A DNA stretch of 63,977 nt, filler included, from Reclinomonas americana ATCC 50394 (GCA_048213135.1; 6 parts of 5 records of this genome joined end to end with filler, not necessarily neighbours in it), one strand, 5' to 3'; positions 11,291 to 29,658 are shown, counted from the first letter of the whole stretch. Translations and numbers: made by a program. The notes: generated from the sequence alone by a model not told the origin.

Positions 11291-12376
11291 ATGTCAGAGA
11301 CGCCTTCTTCTGTCTTATGCAAGTGTTTGCGCGGTCACACTGACTCAGTATTCGCTGTCGCCGTCACTCCCGATGGTCAGCATGCTGTGAGTGGGAGTTT
11401 TGACAACACATTGCAGGTGTGGTCACTGGCAAGTGGCGACGAAGTGAGACGATTGGAGGGCCACGCAAAGTGGGTGAACTGTGTTGCAATCACCCCCACT
11501 GGTCAGCATGCTGTGAGTGGGAGCTGGGACACTACTGTGCGAGTGTGGTCTCTGACGAGTGGTGAGGAGGTGCGGCGGATGGAGGGACACACTGGTCAGG
11601 TGCGCTCTGTTGCCGTCACGCCCGATGGTCGACATGTGGTGAGTGGGAGCGAGGACACGACCGTGCGAGTGTGGGCACTGGCGAGTGGGGAAGAAGTGCG
11701 ACGGTTGGAGGGCCACAGCACAGGTGTGGACCCAGTCGCCGTCACTCCCGATGGGCAGCACATTGTCAGTGGCGGCTGGGACCACACTGTGCGTGTGTGG
11801 TCACTGGCGACTGGGGAACAGCTGCGACTGCTGGTCGGGCACACTAACTGGATATCTTGCGTTGCTGTTACTCCCGATGGCCAGCACATTGTTAGCGGCA
11901 GCTTTGACAGGTCCGTGCGCGTGTGGTCGCTGGCGAGTGGCGAGGAAGTGCGACAGTTGGAGGGATGCACCGGATTGGTCTTGGCAATCGCTGTTGCTCC
12001 CGATGGTCGGTTTGTGGTGACTGGTGGTGAGGACGAGACGGTGGGTGTCTGGTCCCTGGCGACTGGCATTGAAGTAAGACGACTCGAGGGTCACAGTGGC
12101 ACGGTGCATTGTTTGGCCATCACTCCCGACGGTCATCGCATTGTGAGTGGGGCTAACGACGAGACGGTGCGAGTGTGGTCCACGCCGTGCGGCCTCGCTC
12201 AGCAGGAGCTCGACTACGCCCGTTTCGCGATGCGCACTGTGCAGGCGATGCAGCAAGATGATGACGCGGAGCTGGGGCGTCGCTGCTTGGCGGAGATCGT
12301 GCTGCGATGCTTCATCGTCGAGGAGGCAAGCGTTGTTGTTTATCGACTCTCCAGTGGTAACAGATTCTTTCCGTAG
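11291..12376 (+). CDS. WD40 array gene 1: 7 WD40 repeats + conserved C-terminal tail, intronless, 361 aa
   Basis: Seven 42-aa GH...VAVTPDG..VSGSxDxTVRVWSL repeats, then STPCGLAQQELD...CLAEIVLRCF. Confidence 0.95.
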   Translation: MSETPSSVLCKCLRGHTDSVFAVAVTPDGQHAVSGSFDNTLQVWSLASGDEVRRLEGHAKWVNCVAITPTGQHAVSGSWDTTVRVWSLTSGEEVRRMEGHTGQVRSVAVTPDGRHVVSGSEDTTVRVWALASGEEVRRLEGHSTGVDPVAVTPDGQHIVSGGWDHTVRVWSLATGEQLRLLVGHTNWISCVAVTPDGQHIVSGSFDRSVRVWSLASGEEVRQLEGCTGLVLAIAVAPDGRFVVTGGEDETVGVWSLATGIEVRRLEGHSGTVHCLAITPDGHRIVSGANDETVRVWSTPCGLAQQELDYARFAMRTVQAMQQDDDAELGRRCLAEIVLRCFIVEEASVVVYRLSSGNRFFP

Positions 12377-12520
12377 CGGGAGGCGAAGGTCGAGAAGTTG
12401 TCTTGGTTTGCAGTAAACTGTGTTGTGGTAGCACTCATACGTCCCGACGTGCAGCACATCAAGAGAAGTGTCCCCTTCAAAGGACACTCACTTTCTCACA
12501 CACTTCGTCACGCATTCACC

Positions 12521-13612
12521 ATGTCATCCGCCCCTCGTTCTCTCCCATGCCAGTGCTTGCGCGGGCACACTGACTCAGTGTACGCAGTCGCCATCACTCC
12601 CGATGGCCAGCACATCGTCAGCGGGAGTGGTGACAGAAGGATCCGGGTGTGGTCACTGGCAAGTGGCCAGCAGGTGCGACTGCTGAAGGGACACACGGAT
12701 GCTGTGCACGGTGTTGCCGTCACTCCCGACGGTCGGCACGTGGTAAGTGGCAGCTGGGACCACTCCGTGCGTGTCTGGTCACTGGCAAGCGGAAAAGAGG
12801 TGCGACGGCCGACGACTCACCACCTGAGTGTGACCTCGGTTGCTGTCACTCCCGATGGCCTGCACATAGTCAGTGGAAGTGCTGATACGACCGTGCGTGT
12901 GTGGGCACTGGCGAGTGGCGCTGAGGTGCGACAGTTGAAGGGACACACCACGACGGTGTCGTCAGTCGCTGTCTCTCCCGATGGTCAGCACGTGGTGAGT
13001 GGGAGCGCAGATGGCAGTGTGCGCGTGTGGTGCCTGGCGAGTGGAGCTGAGGTGCGACGACTTGATGGACACACCGACTGGGTATCCTGTGTTGCTGTCA
13101 CTCCCGATGGCCAGCACATAGTGAGTTGCAGTTATGAGGAGACAGTGCGAGTGCGGTCACTGGCGAGTGGGGAGGAGGTACGGTGGTTGGAGGGGCACGC
13201 TGGCTTTGTCAAATCGATCTCTGTCACTCCCGATGGTCGGTACGTGGTGACTGGGGGCGAGGACGAGACGGTGCGTGTTTTGTCACTGGCCACGGGCAAG
13301 GAAGTCCGCCGACTGCACGGTCACTCTTATGCGGTGGAATGTGTGGCCGCCACTCCCGATGGTCATCACATAGTGAGTGGGAGTGACGACGATACGGTGC
13401 GAGTGTGGTCCACGCCGAGCGGTCTCGCTCAGCAGGAGCTCGACTGCGCCCGTTCCGCGATGCGCATTGTGCAAGAGATGCAACAAGACAGCGAAGGGGG
13501 AGATGAGGACGATCCAAGACGCCTGGTGGAGATTGTGCTGCGCTGCTTCCTGGTGGAGGAGGCGGAGGTGGTTGTTTACAGGTGCTTTGCCGATGGTGGT
13601 TTTTCATTGTAG
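12521..13612 (+). CDS. WD40 array gene 2
   Basis: ATG at 12521 (MSSAPRSLPCQCLRGH), 7 repeats, same tail. Confidence 0.93.
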   Translation: MSSAPRSLPCQCLRGHTDSVYAVAITPDGQHIVSGSGDRRIRVWSLASGQQVRLLKGHTDAVHGVAVTPDGRHVVSGSWDHSVRVWSLASGKEVRRPTTHHLSVTSVAVTPDGLHIVSGSADTTVRVWALASGAEVRQLKGHTTTVSSVAVSPDGQHVVSGSADGSVRVWCLASGAEVRRLDGHTDWVSCVAVTPDGQHIVSCSYEETVRVRSLASGEEVRWLEGHAGFVKSISVTPDGRYVVTGGEDETVRVLSLATGKEVRRLHGHSYAVECVAATPDGHHIVSGSDDDTVRVWSTPSGLAQQELDCARSAMRIVQEMQQDSEGGDEDDPRRLVEIVLRCFLVEEAEVVVYRCFADGGFSL

Positions 13613-13808
13613 GCGGAGAGTCGTCTCTCTCTCTTTACATTCTTTCCCAGTGTGTTTGTGCGTGCCTCCGTCCACGATCGCTTGGCCTCTCCGAGTTCAG
13701 TAAACAGTCACGCAACGACACCCAGTGCCGACGTTCCGACGTGCAGACTCGTCCCTTCTTTCAAGGACAACTCTTTCTTATCCGTCGTCTCATTACTCCA
13801 CGCCTACC

Positions 13809-28006: not shown

Positions 28007-28234
28007 NNNNNNNNNNNNNNNNNNNNNNNNNNNNNNNNNNNNNNNNNNNNNNNNNNNNNNNNNNNNNNNNNNNNNNNNNNNNNNNNNNNNNNNNNNNNNN
28101 NNNNNNNNNNNNNNNNNNNNNNNNNNNNNNNNNNNNNNNNNNNCGTACCGTACGTACCGTACGTACCGTACGTCGTCGTACGTCGGTCGTCGTACGTACG
28201 TAACGTACGTACGTCGTACGTAGTAGTAGTAGTG

Positions 28235-28309
<75 letters not shown>

Positions 28310-28563
28310 GTCTGTCTGTGTGTGTTGTTGCCAGTTTCTCGTCATGTTTGTATGGTATGTGTTCGTCTTCTTGTCTCCCTCCATTTGCAGTGTTGCCTTC
28401 CCTGCTGCTTCAGTTTCCGTGCAGTAAAGAACACAGTCATTGCTTCACCAGCGGGTTGCTGACTTGCTTTTTTCGACAACATGTGTCCCTGCCGTGGAGG
28501 ACAAGCAACACACACCGACACTCTCTCTCTCTCTCTCTCGTACGTACCTCTCTTACACGCACC

Positions 28564-29658
28564 ATGTCCTCTCCTCCTCCTCCACCCTCTCTCCCCAGCA
28601 AGTGCCTGCGCGGACACACAAACAGTGTGTACTCCATTGCTGTCACTCCCGACGGCATGCACATTGTGAGTTGTGGAGCCGACATGTCAGTGCGAGTGTG
28701 GTCAGTGGAGAGTGGCGCAGAAGTGCAACGATTGATGGGTCACACGCGCGTCGCAATGTGTGTCGCCCTCACTCCTAACGGCCAGCACATTGTCAGTGGT
28801 GGTCGGGATTTCACTGTGCGAGTGTGGTCTCTGGCGAGTGGTGACGAAGTGCGGCTTTTGAAAGGTCACACTGACACTGTGTTCTCTGTCACTGTCACCC
28901 CCGACGGTCAGCATGTCGTGAGCGGCAGCTTCGATACAAATGTGCGAGTGTGGTCACTGGCGAGTGGAGACGAGGTGCGACGATTGGAGGGACACTCGGG
29001 TATCGTGTGGTCTGTCGCCGTCACCCCCGACAGTCAGCATGTCGTGAGCGGAAGTGGAGATAAAACCATTCGCGTGTGGTCTGTGAGGAGCGGGGAGGAA
29101 GTGCGCCGGTTTGTGGGGCACACTCACTTGGTGCGGTCAGTCGCTGTCACTCCCGACGGGCAGCATGTGGTGAGCGGTGGTCGGGACCTCACGGTCCGGG
29201 TGTGGTCGCTGGTAACAGGCGAGGAAGTGCAGCGGCTGGAGGGGCATACGAGTGAGGTGAGCTCTCTCGCCGTCTCCACCGACGGCCAACATGTTGTGAG
29301 CGGAGGTCGAGATATGACAGTGCGAGTGTGGTCGCTGGCGAGCGGAGAGGAGGAGCGACGGTTGGAGGGACACTCTGGTCCGGTGTATTCTGTCGCTGTC
29401 TCCCTCGACGGTCGCCACATTGCGAGTGCGGGTGGCCAGGACATGACTGTCCGGGTGTGGTCCACTCCCTTTGATCTCGCGCAGCAGGAGCTCGACTGTA
29501 CTCGCTCGGCCATGCGCGTCGTGCAAGAGATGCAACAAGGCGTGGAAGGGGGTGACGAGGATGAGCAGCGCTGCCTGGTGGAGATTGTGCTGCGGTGCTT
29601 TGTGGTGGAGGAGGCGGAGGTGGTCGTCCATCGGTGCTTTACCGGTAGCCGATTGTGA
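28564..29658 (+). CDS. WD40 array gene 13
   Basis: MSSPPPPPSLPSKCLRGH, 7 repeats, tail ending FTGSRL*. Confidence 0.95.
   Translation: MSSPPPPPSLPSKCLRGHTNSVYSIAVTPDGMHIVSCGADMSVRVWSVESGAEVQRLMGHTRVAMCVALTPNGQHIVSGGRDFTVRVWSLASGDEVRLLKGHTDTVFSVTVTPDGQHVVSGSFDTNVRVWSLASGDEVRRLEGHSGIVWSVAVTPDSQHVVSGSGDKTIRVWSVRSGEEVRRFVGHTHLVRSVAVTPDGQHVVSGGRDLTVRVWSLVTGEEVQRLEGHTSEVSSLAVSTDGQHVVSGGRDMTVRVWSLASGEEERRLEGHSGPVYSVAVSLDGRHIASAGGQDMTVRVWSTPFDLAQQELDCTRSAMRVVQEMQQGVEGGDEDEQRCLVEIVLRCFVVEEAEVVVHRCFTGSRL

What the first reader, a model, noticed from the sequence alone, without database searches (positions are those of the whole stretch)
11291..29658. Variation is concentrated at the propeller top-face positions, as in HET-E/HET-D
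Seen: the scaffold (VAVTPDGQH(V/I)VSG, TVRVWSLASGEEVRRLEGH) is nearly constant, while residues just after GH and around the SGxxD aspartate vary widely. Gene 1 has GH-TDSVF, AKWVN, TGQVR, STGVD, TNWIS and SGSFDN, SWDT, SEDT, GWDH. Gene 9 has GH-TNTVY, VLAVM, SSWIY, ADAVR, TWGVW, TRALY and GADL, SADR, SQDK, SGDN, SRDM. Known: these positions form the top binding face of WD40 propellers and are the ones under diversifying selection in Podospora HNWD repeats. Inference: positive selection on ligand specificity.
Basis: partly seen in the sequence, partly recalled or inferred. Interest (0 to 1): 0.8.

Follow-up and report, generated by a model that had tools for sequence, protein, structure and literature searches.

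The report
Tandem WD40 genes with variable top face
A row of about a dozen near-duplicate genes for seven-bladed WD40 propeller proteins differs mainly at the few residues that normally touch binding partners, but the data do not show clearly that natural selection is driving that variation.

Summary
Window 11291-29658 carries 11 fully visible seven-blade WD40 genes, one partly masked gene and one truncated copy. Together they give 83 repeat units of 42 codons.

Amino-acid entropy peaks at unit positions 7, 9, 27, 25 and 6, then 2 and 5. Positions 7, 9 and 25 are the canonical top-face contact residues (R1-2, R1, D-1). Codons 7, 9, 25 and 27 are the ones reported for Podospora HET-E/D.

The inference of positive selection is only partly supported.
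- For: a PAML-like M1a/M2a test gives omega 1.75 at exactly 7, 9, 25 and 27. A MEME-like test flags positions 7 and 25.
- Against: site- and class-level tests with a free synonymous rate give omega 0.95-1.0. Recent duplicates give 0.35-1.3. Independent pairs give 0.96.
- Complication: recombination between and within units, and many multi-nucleotide codon changes, compromise the positive tests.

This is not a HET-E-type system. There is no HET or NACHT domain, every complete gene has seven blades, and units are only 66% identical in DNA, so there is no concerted evolution. The same positions vary in 29 unrelated repetitive WD40 proteins.

New here are the stand-alone architecture, a conserved orphan C-terminal tail and in-register blade exchange between paralogs.

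The parts
11291..12376 (+). G01: stand-alone 7-blade WD40 gene with C-terminal tail (361 aa)
   Evidence: ORF and units; Pfam WD40 x7, E 5e-77
12521..13612 (+). G02: 7-blade WD40 gene with tail. Some degenerate motifs: blade 3 lacks GH; W32 is replaced in blades 5 and 6
13809..14876 (+). G03: 7-blade WD40 gene with tail. Blade 5 has a 5-codon deletion; GH is degenerate in blades 4, 6 and 7
15929..16932 (-). G04: inverted 7-blade WD40 gene. Blade 4 has a 2-codon deletion. Most of the tail lies in masked 14973-15928
17400..17990 (-). G05: inverted WD40 gene. Four blades and the start of a fifth are visible; the rest is masked (17066-17399)
18293..18380 (-). Tail-only remnant (…VEIVLRCFLVEEAEVVVHRCFTDSSLRL) abutting masked 18381-18774. 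There is no room for a full gene upstream of it
   Evidence: ORF translation
18890..19984 (+). G06: 7-blade WD40 gene with tail
20334..20609 (+). F07: truncated copy, two blades and the start of a third, ending at a 20-N run (20610-20629)
20751..21848 (+). G08: 7-blade WD40 gene with tail; closest paralog of G06
22552..23646 (+).
23948..25051 (+). G10: 7-blade WD40 gene with tail; blade 7 has one extra codon
25402..26499 (+). G11: 7-blade WD40 gene with tail, the one modelled. Propeller is residues 12-299, helix 301-327, low-confidence end 329-365. Mosaic: blades 1-2 resemble G05/F07, blade 3 resembles G04, blades 4-7 resemble G06
26822..27922 (+). G12: 7-blade WD40 gene with tail; mosaic of G10-, G06-, G05- and G09-like blades
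28564..29658 (+). G13: 7-blade WD40 gene with tail; ends in -SRL
26296..26496 (+). Example of the conserved 67-aa C-terminal tail (in G11). It is present in all 10 genes whose 3' end is visible. dN/dS is 0.25 overall and 0.17 for the last ~30 residues
   Evidence: relatives

Best explanation
The region is a tandem, partly inverted array of intronless paralogous genes. Each encodes a stand-alone seven-bladed WD40 propeller, with only 12-14 residues before blade 1 and a family-specific ~67-residue C-terminal tail after blade 7.

Shown:
- The blades are moderately repetitive, with 59-62% amino-acid identity inside a gene.
- They are kept alike by purifying selection on the protein (scaffold omega about 0.2). 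They are not homogenised at DNA level: units are 66% identical in nucleotides and paralog dS runs from 0.14 to above 1.5.
- Replacements concentrate at the canonical top-face contact positions R1-2 (7), R1 (9), D-1 (25) and D+1 (27), plus 5 and 6 in the d-a loop.
- There the non-synonymous rate is about equal to the local synonymous rate (omega about 1). That is 4-8 times the scaffold value.
- Paralogs exchange blocks of blades in register.

Inferred:
- The propellers are binding modules whose top faces have diverged to different specificities, while the tail is a constant docking or regulatory element.
- Turnover at the contact residues is functional re-specification, drawn from a restricted and aromatic-rich residue set, possibly with episodic positive selection. 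It is not the sustained HET-E-type diversifying selection coupled to concerted evolution.
For: Fold and face:
- AlphaFold2 gives a confident 7-blade propeller (pLDDT > 90 over residues 12-299).
- Strands map to a = unit positions 8-13, b = 19-24, c = 28-33 and d = 39-2. So 3-7 and 25-27 are the d-a and b-c (top) loops, and 14-18 and 34-38 are the bottom loops.
- Mean entropy is 2.12 bits for the top set, 1.02 for bottom loops and 0.97 for the rest.

Divergence and scaffold constraint:
- Nucleotide identity between units averages 0.66.
- Scaffold omega is 0.11-0.30 pairwise and 0.21-0.33 by ML.

Rate at the hypervariable positions:
- Omega is 0.96 in 38 independent pairs.
- It is 0.95-1.00 with alpha free on the whole tree.
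- In recent clades it is 0.99 (95% CI 0.63-1.47) and 0.98 (0.69-1.35).

Signs that these positions are not unconstrained:
- W+Y+F make up 39 of 83 residues at position 9, against 6.9% expected from base composition.
- W makes up 15 of 83 at position 7, against 2.8% expected.
- Pro is almost absent at these positions.
- There are 65 distinct residue quartets among 81 units.

Mosaicism:
- The nearest blade comes from a different paralog along one gene.
- The max-chi2 test gives p = 0.0005 for G11/G06, with divergence of 0.13-0.24 in blades 1-3 against 0.01-0.04 in blades 4-7.

Tail:
- It is under purifying selection, omega 0.17-0.26.
- It is shared with three outside proteins. One is a Reclinomonas americana EST product. 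Two are divergent propellers of 381 and 394 aa.
Against: Two tests point to real positive selection:
- The M2a-like test gives omega 1.75 (LRT 27.2, p = 1e-6) at exactly 7, 9, 25 and 27.
- The MEME-like test gives p = 1e-4 at position 25 and p = 0.004 at position 7.

Simulations show that saturation and tree re-inference alone do not create these signals:
- With true beta = 1 the estimate was 0.99, with 0 of 8 false positives.
- With heterogeneous synonymous rates the estimate was 1.06-1.08, with 2 of 8 false positives in each of two sets.
- The largest MEME-like null LRT was 2.99 in 18 site-replicates.

No ligand, partner, expression data or population data exist for any of these genes, so the binding-module function is inference from the fold and from hotspot positions. 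The elevated synonymous rate at the variable codons (alpha 1.79, p = 0.002) is also what linked diversity under balancing selection would give, so omega about 1 does not exclude selection.
Confidence: 0.5

Rival explanations
1. HET-E-like recognition repertoire. The top-face codons 7, 9, 25 and 27 are under sustained or episodic diversifying selection for new ligand specificities. Blade exchange between paralogs spreads the variants.
For: - The same four codons are reported for Podospora.
- M2a-like LRT 27.2, omega2 = 1.75, posterior > 0.9 at these four sites only.
- Class beta is 1.67-1.75 relative to the array-wide synonymous rate, 95% CI 1.40-1.98.
- MEME-like signal at positions 25 and 7, above all 18 null site-replicates.
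- 65 distinct quartets among 81 units, and enrichment of aromatic hotspot residues.
- In-register blade exchange.
- 16 of 34 non-synonymous codon differences at the six variable positions in 21 recent pairs involve 2-3 nucleotides, against 16 of 61 elsewhere. Repeated hits on one codon would give that.
Against: - FEL finds no site with beta > alpha. Position 9 has omega 0.41 and position 27 has 0.50.
- Omega is 0.95-1.0 once the class-specific synonymous rate is free.
- Recent clades give 0.35-1.33, never significantly above 1, with upper CI at most 1.5.
- Independent pairs give 0.96.
- The M2a-like LRT falls to 4.0 (p = 0.13) if branch lengths are 30% longer.
- The fixed-alpha test gave 2 of 8 false positives under heterogeneous synonymous rates.
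- Intra-unit mosaicism is seen: G11 blade 4 shares the VCVW variant with G05 blade 4 but otherwise matches G06. Neither that nor multi-nucleotide changes were simulated, and by my recall both inflate such tests.
- The same positions vary in 29 unrelated repetitive WD40 proteins.
Confidence: 0.32
2. Relaxed constraint only. The top face of these propellers has no specific ligand, or the array is redundant and decaying. The contact positions then drift neutrally while the fold-determining scaffold stays under purifying selection.
For: - Omega is about 1 in most tests.
- The same positions are the least constrained in other repetitive WD40 proteins.
- G01-G04 show degenerate GH or W motifs and in-frame deletions in single blades.
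- A truncated copy and a tail-only remnant exist.
Against: - Residue composition at positions 7 and 9 is far from the mutational expectation: aromatics 47% against 7% at position 9. Units are not independent, so the p-values are optimistic.
- All 11 complete genes keep open frames.
- Scaffold omega is about 0.2 and tail omega is 0.17.
- By my own reasoning, complete neutrality of exposed loop residues in a protein otherwise under strong constraint is unusual.
Confidence: 0.14
3. Artefact. The array or its mosaic copies result from mis-assembly of a repetitive locus, so the between-copy comparisons are partly spurious.
For: - The window has 32 N runs, including a 20-N run right after the truncated copy F07.
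- Mosaic copies have sharp breakpoints.
Against: - Copies differ at many synonymous sites, with dS from 0.14 to above 1.5. That is enough for unambiguous assembly.
- All complete copies keep intact frames and exactly seven blades.
- A related transcript exists in another species.
Confidence: 0.04

Closest known systems
Podospora anserina HNWD/NWD genes (het-e, het-d): NACHT-WD40 NOD-like receptors (Paoletti et al. 2007, PMC1805685, passages read)
   Same: - 42-residue WD40 units with an unusually uniform scaffold.
- Hypervariability at the same codons (7, 9, 25, 27), flanking conserved 8 and 26, in the d-a loop and b-c turn of the top face.
- Many distinct residue combinations: 65 among 81 units here, 55 among 69 there.
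- Exchange of repeats between paralogs.
   Different: - No HET or NACHT domain; the protein is a propeller plus a novel tail.
- Always 7 blades, against variable repeat numbers there.
- Units are 66% identical in DNA, against up to 100% there, so there is no concerted evolution of the scaffold.
- Positive selection is strong there and not robust here.
- Exchange here is in register between genes, not shuffling of single repeats.
- Non-fungal host.
WRAP, the recently amplified WD40 propeller of Nostoc punctiforme Npun_R6612 (PDB 2YMU; Afanasieva et al. 2019, PMC6805158, passages read)
   Same: - Best solved-structure match by sequence, E = 2.7e-169.
- Seven-bladed propellers built from consensus-like blades.
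- The position that varies in WRAP (Trp/Arg after GHSSSV) aligns with unit position 9 here.
   Different: - WRAP blades are practically identical, with no synonymous differences, and sit at the C-terminus of a large bacterial protein.
- Here the blades are old at silent sites, the genes stand alone, and they form an array.
Highly or moderately repetitive WD40 proteins of bacteria, fungi and protists (Hu et al. 2017, PMC5587647; Pereira and Lupas 2022, PMC9218822; passages read)
   Same: - Internal blade identity of 0.59-0.62 falls in Hu et al.'s 'moderately repetitive' band (0.4-0.7).
- In 29 database relatives with median blade identity of at least 0.5, position 7 is among the four most variable in 22, position 9 in 22, position 6 in 20, position 25 in 19 and position 27 in 10.
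   Different: - Those proteins are mostly longer multidomain proteins. The best hits cover only the WD part, 63-98% of the query, at no more than 58% identity.
- None carries the tail.
- No tandem array of stand-alone copies turned up in what I read.
WDR5-type stand-alone seven-blade WD40 adaptors
   Same: Stand-alone 7-blade propeller of about 300 residues. Strong sequence match to WDR5 chains, E about 1e-72.
   Different: - Twelve paralogs with divergent top faces and an extra conserved tail.
- Orthology was not tested by phylogeny.
- The high scores to many propeller HMMs (THOC3, WDR3, WDR5) probably reflect the consensus-like blades.

Membership tests
HNWD (HET-E/HET-D) NOD-like receptors | N-terminal HET effector domain | tested here: not met
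   Only 12-14 residues precede blade 1. Pfam shows only propeller families for three of the genes, but only the best 25 of 53-54 matches were listed. A 361-368 aa protein filled by 7 blades and the tail has no room for the domain.
HNWD (HET-E/HET-D) NOD-like receptors | Central NACHT NTPase domain | tested here: not met
   Same as above. Of the 36 flanking ORFs sent to Pfam (out of 162 listed), none matched a NACHT or NB-ARC domain.
HNWD (HET-E/HET-D) NOD-like receptors | WD repeats nearly identical at protein and DNA level through concerted evolution | tested here: not met
   Mean nucleotide identity between units is 0.66, and 0.653 within a gene. Median blade amino-acid identity is 0.59-0.62.
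HNWD (HET-E/HET-D) NOD-like receptors | Variable repeat number between genes or alleles | tested here: not met
   All 11 complete genes have exactly 7 units. Alleles could not be examined.
HNWD (HET-E/HET-D) NOD-like receptors | Hypervariable codons 7, 9, 25, 27 on the top face | tested here: met
   Entropy ranks. Loop assignment from the model. Published positions. That the two numberings coincide is inferred from conserved V8 and D26, not from a direct alignment to HET-E.
HNWD (HET-E/HET-D) NOD-like receptors | dN/dS > 1 at those codons | tested here: inconclusive
   Positive: supported by simulations. Negative. Confounders.
Repetitive WD40 propellers (HR/MR classes of Hu et al. 2017) | Internal repeat identity at least 0.7 (HR) or at least 0.4 (MR) | tested here: met
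   Identity of 0.59-0.62 meets MR and does not meet HR. The cut-offs come from PMC5587647. My identity measure may differ in detail from theirs.
WRAP-type bacterial propellers | Near-identical blades without synonymous differences, with a STAND/TIR neighbour or fusion | tested here: not met
   Synonymous divergence is large. No such domain appeared in the ORFs of this window that I scanned.
WD40 repeat superfamily (Pfam PF00400) | Seven WD40 repeats folding into a beta-propeller | tested here: met
   Pfam finds 7 stretches with E from 5e-77 to 4e-83. The model is a 7-blade propeller, pTM 0.80.
THOC3 / WDR5 orthologs | Orthology by phylogeny and conserved partner-binding residues | not tested
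   PF25174 scores of 329-384 bits exceed its cut-off of 305. Twelve paralogs with divergent top faces and an extra tail argue against simple orthology.

The most novel reading that the evidence does not exclude
The array is a propeller-only recognition repertoire in a protist. It would work without any NOD or STAND domain. Diversity at the canonical contact residues would arise from tandem duplication, episodic selection and in-register exchange of blade blocks between paralogs. All variants would signal or dock through one conserved, so far orphan, C-terminal tail. Functionally it would be either an innate-immunity or self/non-self sensor set, or a family of interchangeable substrate receptors for one effector machine.
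Probability: 0.15. Interest if true: 0.8.

Novelty: new variant of a known kind. Interest (0 to 1): 0.45.

Why it matters
Uniform-scaffold WD40 repeats with hypervariable top-face residues are known as sensor domains of fungal NOD-like receptors. They are suspected to play the same role in bacterial STAND proteins.

If these stand-alone propellers with a conserved orphan tail are also a specificity repertoire, two things would follow. The variable WD40 face would be a recognition module that evolution reuses without the NOD machinery. The tail would point to an unknown common partner.

The case is also a methodological caution. A PAML-type site test returns the textbook answer here: omega > 1 at exactly the HET-E codons. 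Tests that allow synonymous-rate variation, or that use only recent duplicates, do not.

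Tried and rejected
- **Whole genome:** none is held for this window.
- **Sequencing runs:** none was listed for 22450-27950 and no RNA holder was listed. Expression and polymorphism could not be examined.
- **ML on 38 nearest pairs:** this gave omega 2.1 at the variable sites. I discard it. Pairs were chosen by minimal scaffold synonymous distance, which biases branch lengths down, and the more distant pairs are not orthologous blades.
- **First FEL run:** it had not converged, showing negative LRTs. 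It was replaced.
- **Neutral yardstick from non-coding flanks:** most flanks are masked or too gappy. The only usable ones were G06/G11 3' (p = 0.18 over 279 aligned bases) and G09/G10 3' (p = 0.17 over 248). That is too little to decide.
- **3D mapping of entropy:** I used the model's strand and loop assignment with published topology instead.
- **Tail annotation:**
  - No Pfam family reached significance; the best E-values were 0.1-0.12.
  - No solved relative; best E = 0.79.
  - No usable ESM Atlas hit.
  - No hit in two word-index searches, near and shorter lengths.
- **Tail homodimer prediction:** no verdict, score 0.01.
- **Link to the WD40 proteins Gcp1-3 that co-occur with the mitochondrial T2SS in jakobids and others (PMC8134430, passages read):** those are described as Pex7-like, and nothing here ties the array to them. 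Only G13 ends in a PTS1-like -SRL. Left as a lead.

Full report
**1. What is there**

The window is GC-rich (about 0.58-0.60 where unmasked) and holds 32 N-masked runs totalling 8,042 N. No whole genome is held for it. An HMM built from one gene's seven repeats and run over all six frames gave 84 hits. All lie between 11327 and 29490 and none lies elsewhere.

Cutting each gene in register gives these pieces:
- 11 complete genes of exactly seven 42-residue units: G01 11291-12376, G02 12521-13612, G03 13809-14876, G04 16932-15929 on the minus strand, G06 18890-19984, G08 20751-21848, G09 22552-23646, G10 23948-25051, G11 25402-26499, G12 26822-27922, G13 28564-29658.
- One minus-strand gene with four visible units and a masked remainder (G05).
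- One truncated copy of two units that ends at a 20-N run (F07, 20334-20609).

That is 83 units. Indels are few: a 5-codon deletion in G03 blade 5, a 2-codon deletion in G04 blade 4, and one extra codon in blade 7 of G10, G12 and G13.

Each protein has 12-14 residues before blade 1 (consensus MSSPPPPPSLPCKC) and a conserved tail of about 67 residues after blade 7. Pfam sees seven WD40 repeats, with E from 5e-77 to 4e-83, and many propeller families.

The flanks hold a protein-kinase gene with intron-like interruptions (30096-31449, minus strand) and a reverse-transcriptase fragment (60787-62211, minus strand). Nothing else was recognisable among the 36 ORFs I scanned, out of 162 listed. The locus looks eukaryotic.

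**2. The observation**

I number units L1-x2-G3-H4...V8...D26...W32. Amino-acid entropy over the 83 units is highest at positions 7 (3.43 bits), 9 (3.26), 27 (3.25), 25 (3.14), 6 (2.98), 2 (2.60) and 5 (2.08). Most other positions are below 1.3.

'Nearly constant scaffold' is too strong:
- The exact VAVTPDGQH(V/I)VSG string occurs in 14 of 83 units.
- The exact TVRVWSLASGEEVRRLEGH string occurs at 5 of 70 junctions.
- A median unit has 6 mismatches to consensus over 35 positions.

**3. Which face**

An AlphaFold2 model of G11, built with a 10-paralog alignment, has mean pLDDT 85 and pTM 0.80. It is a seven-blade propeller with pLDDT above 90 over residues 12-299. A helix follows at 301-327 (pLDDT about 55-60), then a low-confidence end.

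Its strands map to these unit positions:
- Strand a: 8-13.
- Strand b: 19-24.
- Strand c: 28-33.
- Strand d: 39-42 plus 1-2 of the next unit.

So positions 3-7 form the d-a loop and 25-27 the b-c turn. Positions 14-18 and 34-38 are the a-b and c-d loops. By the standard WD40 convention the d-a and b-c loops make the top face.

Wu et al. 2012 (PMC3419727, passages read) define the top-face hotspots as R1, R1-2 and D-1. R1 is the residue after the first of the (V,L,I)-R1-R2-(V,L,I) quartet. Here V8-x9-S10-V11 makes R1 = 9, R1-2 = 7 and D-1 = 25.

The five most variable positions all lie in the nine-position top set (hypergeometric P = 1.5e-4). Mean entropy is 2.12 bits for the top set, 1.02 for bottom loops and 0.97 elsewhere.

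**4. Comparison with HET-E/D**

Paoletti et al. [quoted passage not shown] They report purifying selection at 8 and 26, and 55 residue combinations among 69 repeats. They also report repeat identity up to 100% with concerted evolution within and between loci.

Here the positions are the same. That the numbering registers coincide is inferred from V8 and D26. There are 65 distinct quartets among 81 units.

The DNA tells a different story. Mean nucleotide identity between units is 0.66: 0.653 within genes, 0.716 for the same blade across genes and 0.651 for different blades. Median blade amino-acid identity is 0.59-0.62. Pairwise dS between paralogs runs from 0.14 to above 1.5. The scaffold is therefore held by purifying selection on the protein and not by homogenisation of the DNA.

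**5. Selection tests**

PAML and HyPhy are not installed. I wrote a GY94 codon-likelihood implementation. It reproduces IQ-TREE's lnL of -5539.07 exactly on the 83-unit tree (omega 0.347, kappa 2.418).

- **(a) Nei-Gojobori counts.** Across the 55 gene pairs, omega at the six variable positions is 0.28-1.50 where defined, against 0.11-0.30 for the scaffold. In 38 phylogenetically independent nearest pairs it is 0.96 against 0.38.
- **(b) FEL-type per-site fits, alpha and beta free.** No site has beta significantly above alpha. Omega is 1.35 at position 7 (p = 0.46), 1.64 at 25 (p = 0.17), 0.93 at 6, 0.65 at 5, 0.50 at 27 and 0.41 at 9 (p = 0.04, in the direction of beta below alpha). Most scaffold sites are under significant purifying selection.
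- **(c) Class-level fits.** With the synonymous rate fixed at the array average, beta for positions 7, 9, 25 and 27 is 1.75 under F3x4 (LRT 40.8) and 1.67 under F61 (95% CI 1.40-1.98). With alpha free, the estimates are alpha 1.79 and beta 1.70 (omega 0.95) under F3x4, and 1.62 and 1.62 (omega 1.00) under F61. The excess synonymous rate at these codons is itself significant (LRT 9.3, p = 0.002).
- **(d) Recent clades only.** Subtrees were cut at depth 0.12-0.6 codon substitutions. Under F3x4, beta is 1.33, 0.62 and 1.11. Under F61 it is 0.35 (CI 0.09-0.94), 0.99 (0.63-1.47) and 0.98 (0.69-1.35). It is never significantly above 1. The scaffold gives 0.18-0.33.
- **(e) M1a/M2a-type mixture with M0 branch lengths.** LRT is 27.2 (p = 1.3e-6). 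A class with omega 1.75 holds 9.3% of sites, and its posterior exceeds 0.9 only at 7, 9, 25 and 27. With branch lengths 30% longer, the LRT is 4.0 (p = 0.13).
- **(f) MEME-type branch-mixture test on ten variable sites.** Position 25 gives LRT 16.6 (p = 1e-4) and position 7 gives LRT 9.5 (p = 0.004). The other eight are not significant. The mixture weights used for the p-values are recalled from the MEME paper and were not checked.
- **(g) Simulations through the same pipeline, with the tree re-inferred each time.**
  - True beta = 1 returns 0.99 ± 0.08, with 0 of 8 false positives.
  - True beta = 1.75 returns 1.79, with alpha-hat 1.06.
  - With the observed heterogeneity of synonymous rates, neutral sites return 1.06-1.08, with 2 of 8 false positives in each of two sets.
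  - The largest null MEME-like LRT in 18 site-replicates is 2.99.

Saturation and tree error alone therefore do not explain the positive results. The simulations did not include recombination or multi-nucleotide change.

**6. Confounders that are really present**

Paralogs are mosaics. Along one gene, the nearest blade comes from different paralogs:
- G11: blades 1-2 from G05/F07, blade 3 from G04, blades 4-7 from G06.
- G12: blades from G10, G08, G06, G05, G09, G10 and G10 in turn.

Max-chi2 tests are significant in all 8 pairs tried. For G11/G06, p = 0.0005, with divergence of 0.22, 0.24 and 0.13 in blades 1-3 against 0.04, 0.03, 0.04 and 0.01 in blades 4-7. For G06/G08, p = 0.008. For the more distant pairs, rate differences between blades may contribute.

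Mosaicism also occurs inside a unit. G11 blade 4 otherwise matches G06 blade 4 but shares the rare VCVW variant with G05 blade 4. Like G12 blade 4, it has Leu at position 25.

In 21 recent independent pairs, 16 of 34 non-synonymous codon differences at the six variable positions change two or three nucleotides, against 16 of 61 elsewhere. Repeated selected hits would give this, but so would micro-conversion or multi-nucleotide mutation. By my recall, the last two inflate M2a- and MEME-type tests.

**7. Are the variable sites simply unconstrained?**

Probably not. At position 9, W+Y+F make up 39 of 83 residues, against 6.9% expected from third-position base composition. At position 7, W makes up 15 of 83 against 2.8% expected. 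Pro is nearly absent. Units share ancestry, so the nominal p-values are optimistic. The residue set matches the hotspot-type residues of Wu et al.. Turnover at about the neutral rate within a restricted, binding-type alphabet fits changing specificities better than loss of function.

**8. The pattern is a class property**

The closest solved structure is 2YMU (E = 2.7e-169). This is the WRAP propeller of Nostoc punctiforme. Six of the ten point mutations among its 14 blades are Trp-to-Arg at one position (PMC6805158, passages read). That position aligns with unit position 9 in the alignment.

A search of 5.8 billion proteins returned only WD-part matches: at most 58% identity and 63-98% of the query covered, mostly about 76-81%. 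They are environmental, bacterial (Gemmataceae, Anaerolineae) and fungal (Paxillus, Tuber) proteins. Of the 120 listed, 42 had at least 6 ungapped units and 29 of those had median blade identity of at least 0.5. Among those 29, the counts for being among the four most variable positions are as follows:

| Position | Proteins (of 29) |
|---|---|
| 7 | 22 |
| 9 | 22 |
| 6 | 20 |
| 25 | 19 |
| 27 | 10 |

Hu et al. 2017 (PMC5587647) and Pereira and Lupas 2022 (PMC9218822) describe such repetitive WD40 proteins in bacteria, fungi and protists. The internal identity here falls in Hu et al.'s 'moderately repetitive' band.

**9. What is particular here**

- **Architecture.** The proteins are stand-alone propellers in a tandem array, with an inverted segment (G04, G05), a tail-only remnant (18293-18380, minus strand) and a truncated copy.
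- **The tail.**
  - It is conserved, with 81% mean column identity, and under purifying selection: omega is 0.26 for the helix part, 0.42 for the acidic linker and 0.17 for the last ~30 residues.
  - It has no significant Pfam, PDB or Atlas match and no word-index hit.
  - A full HMMER scan of 1.84 billion representatives found 4 proteins, of which I looked at three. One is a 116-aa product of a Reclinomonas americana EST (E = 2e-21), about 54-61% identical to the blade 6-7 plus tail regions here. The other two are unnamed proteins of 394 and 381 aa, in which divergent, non-repetitive propeller blades precede the same tail.
  - The propeller-plus-tail family therefore exists outside this genome, and the array is a repetitive, expanded branch of it.
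- **Blade exchange.** Exchange between paralogs is in register.

**10. Verdict**

The positional analogy with HET-E/D is exact. The mechanistic analogy is not: there is no NOD architecture, no repeat-number variation and no concerted evolution.

Positive selection is plausible but not shown. The non-synonymous rate at the contact positions is 4-8 times that of the scaffold. It equals the local synonymous rate. It exceeds the array-wide synonymous rate by about 1.4-1.75 fold only over the deep, recombining tree.

My best reading (0.5) is a family of binding modules with diverged top faces and a constant tail. A HET-E-like diversifying regime (0.32), pure relaxation (0.14) and artefact (0.04) remain open.

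Noticed in passing
window 1-63977; runs listed: There are 32 runs of N totalling 8,042 bases. Several lie inside the array (14973-15928, 17066-17399, 18381-18774, 20610-20629, 22035-22418, 28007-28143). Paired 44-N runs separated by 12 bases recur at six places (for example 31723-31822, 40186-40285, 51440-51539), which suggests a repeated masked element.
   Followed up: no
18293-18380 (-): The last 28 residues of the family tail are encoded here, directly next to a masked stretch and upstream of G05. There is no room for a full gene before G06 starts on the other strand. This looks like the remnant of a rearrangement or inversion breakpoint.
   Followed up: partly
20334-20629 (+): Truncated copy F07. 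Its two blades are 97% identical in DNA to G05 blade 1 and G11 blade 2. It breaks off in blade 3 at a 20-N run, so it could be a true truncation or an assembly gap.
   Followed up: partly
30096-31449 (-): A protein-kinase gene (Pfam Pkinase, E = 2e-35). The catalytic domain is interrupted by non-kinase stretches, which look like introns. The WD40 genes, by contrast, are uninterrupted ORFs.
   Followed up: partly
60787-62211 (-): A reverse-transcriptase fragment (RVT_1, E = 3e-11) next to masked stretches. This is probably a retroelement.
   Followed up: no
29653-29655 (G13 C-terminus) versus the other tails: G13 ends in -SRL, a PTS1-like tripeptide (recalled consensus). The other copies end in -LRL, -LGL, -FSL or -FFP. 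A paper on jakobids and other protists describes WD40 proteins (Gcp1-3) with predicted PTS1 (PMC8134430). No link was tested.
   Followed up: partly
unit positions 8, 11, 13, 29, 31, 34, 40 across the array: The Val and Leu scaffold codons have very low site-specific synonymous rates (alpha 0.15-0.40), against 2.3-3.6 at some Ser, Thr and Glu positions. Val is 61% GTG. Synonymous rates are strongly heterogeneous, which matters for any dN/dS test here.
   Followed up: partly
spacers, e.g. 27719-28384 (-) and 17058-18296 (-): The intergenic spacers contain low-complexity tracts that read as (RE)n or PSLPPSLPPS in some frames. Where they are alignable, spacers diverge much more than the adjacent coding blades. 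The G06/G11 3' flank has p = 0.18, against 0.01 in blade 7.
   Followed up: partly
G01-G04 (11291-16932): The upstream genes carry more degenerate motifs. GH is replaced in G01 blade 6, G02 blade 3 and G03 blades 4, 6 and 7. W32 is replaced in G02 blades 5 and 6. G03 and G04 have in-frame deletions. All frames stay open. This may be early decay or functional divergence.
   Followed up: no
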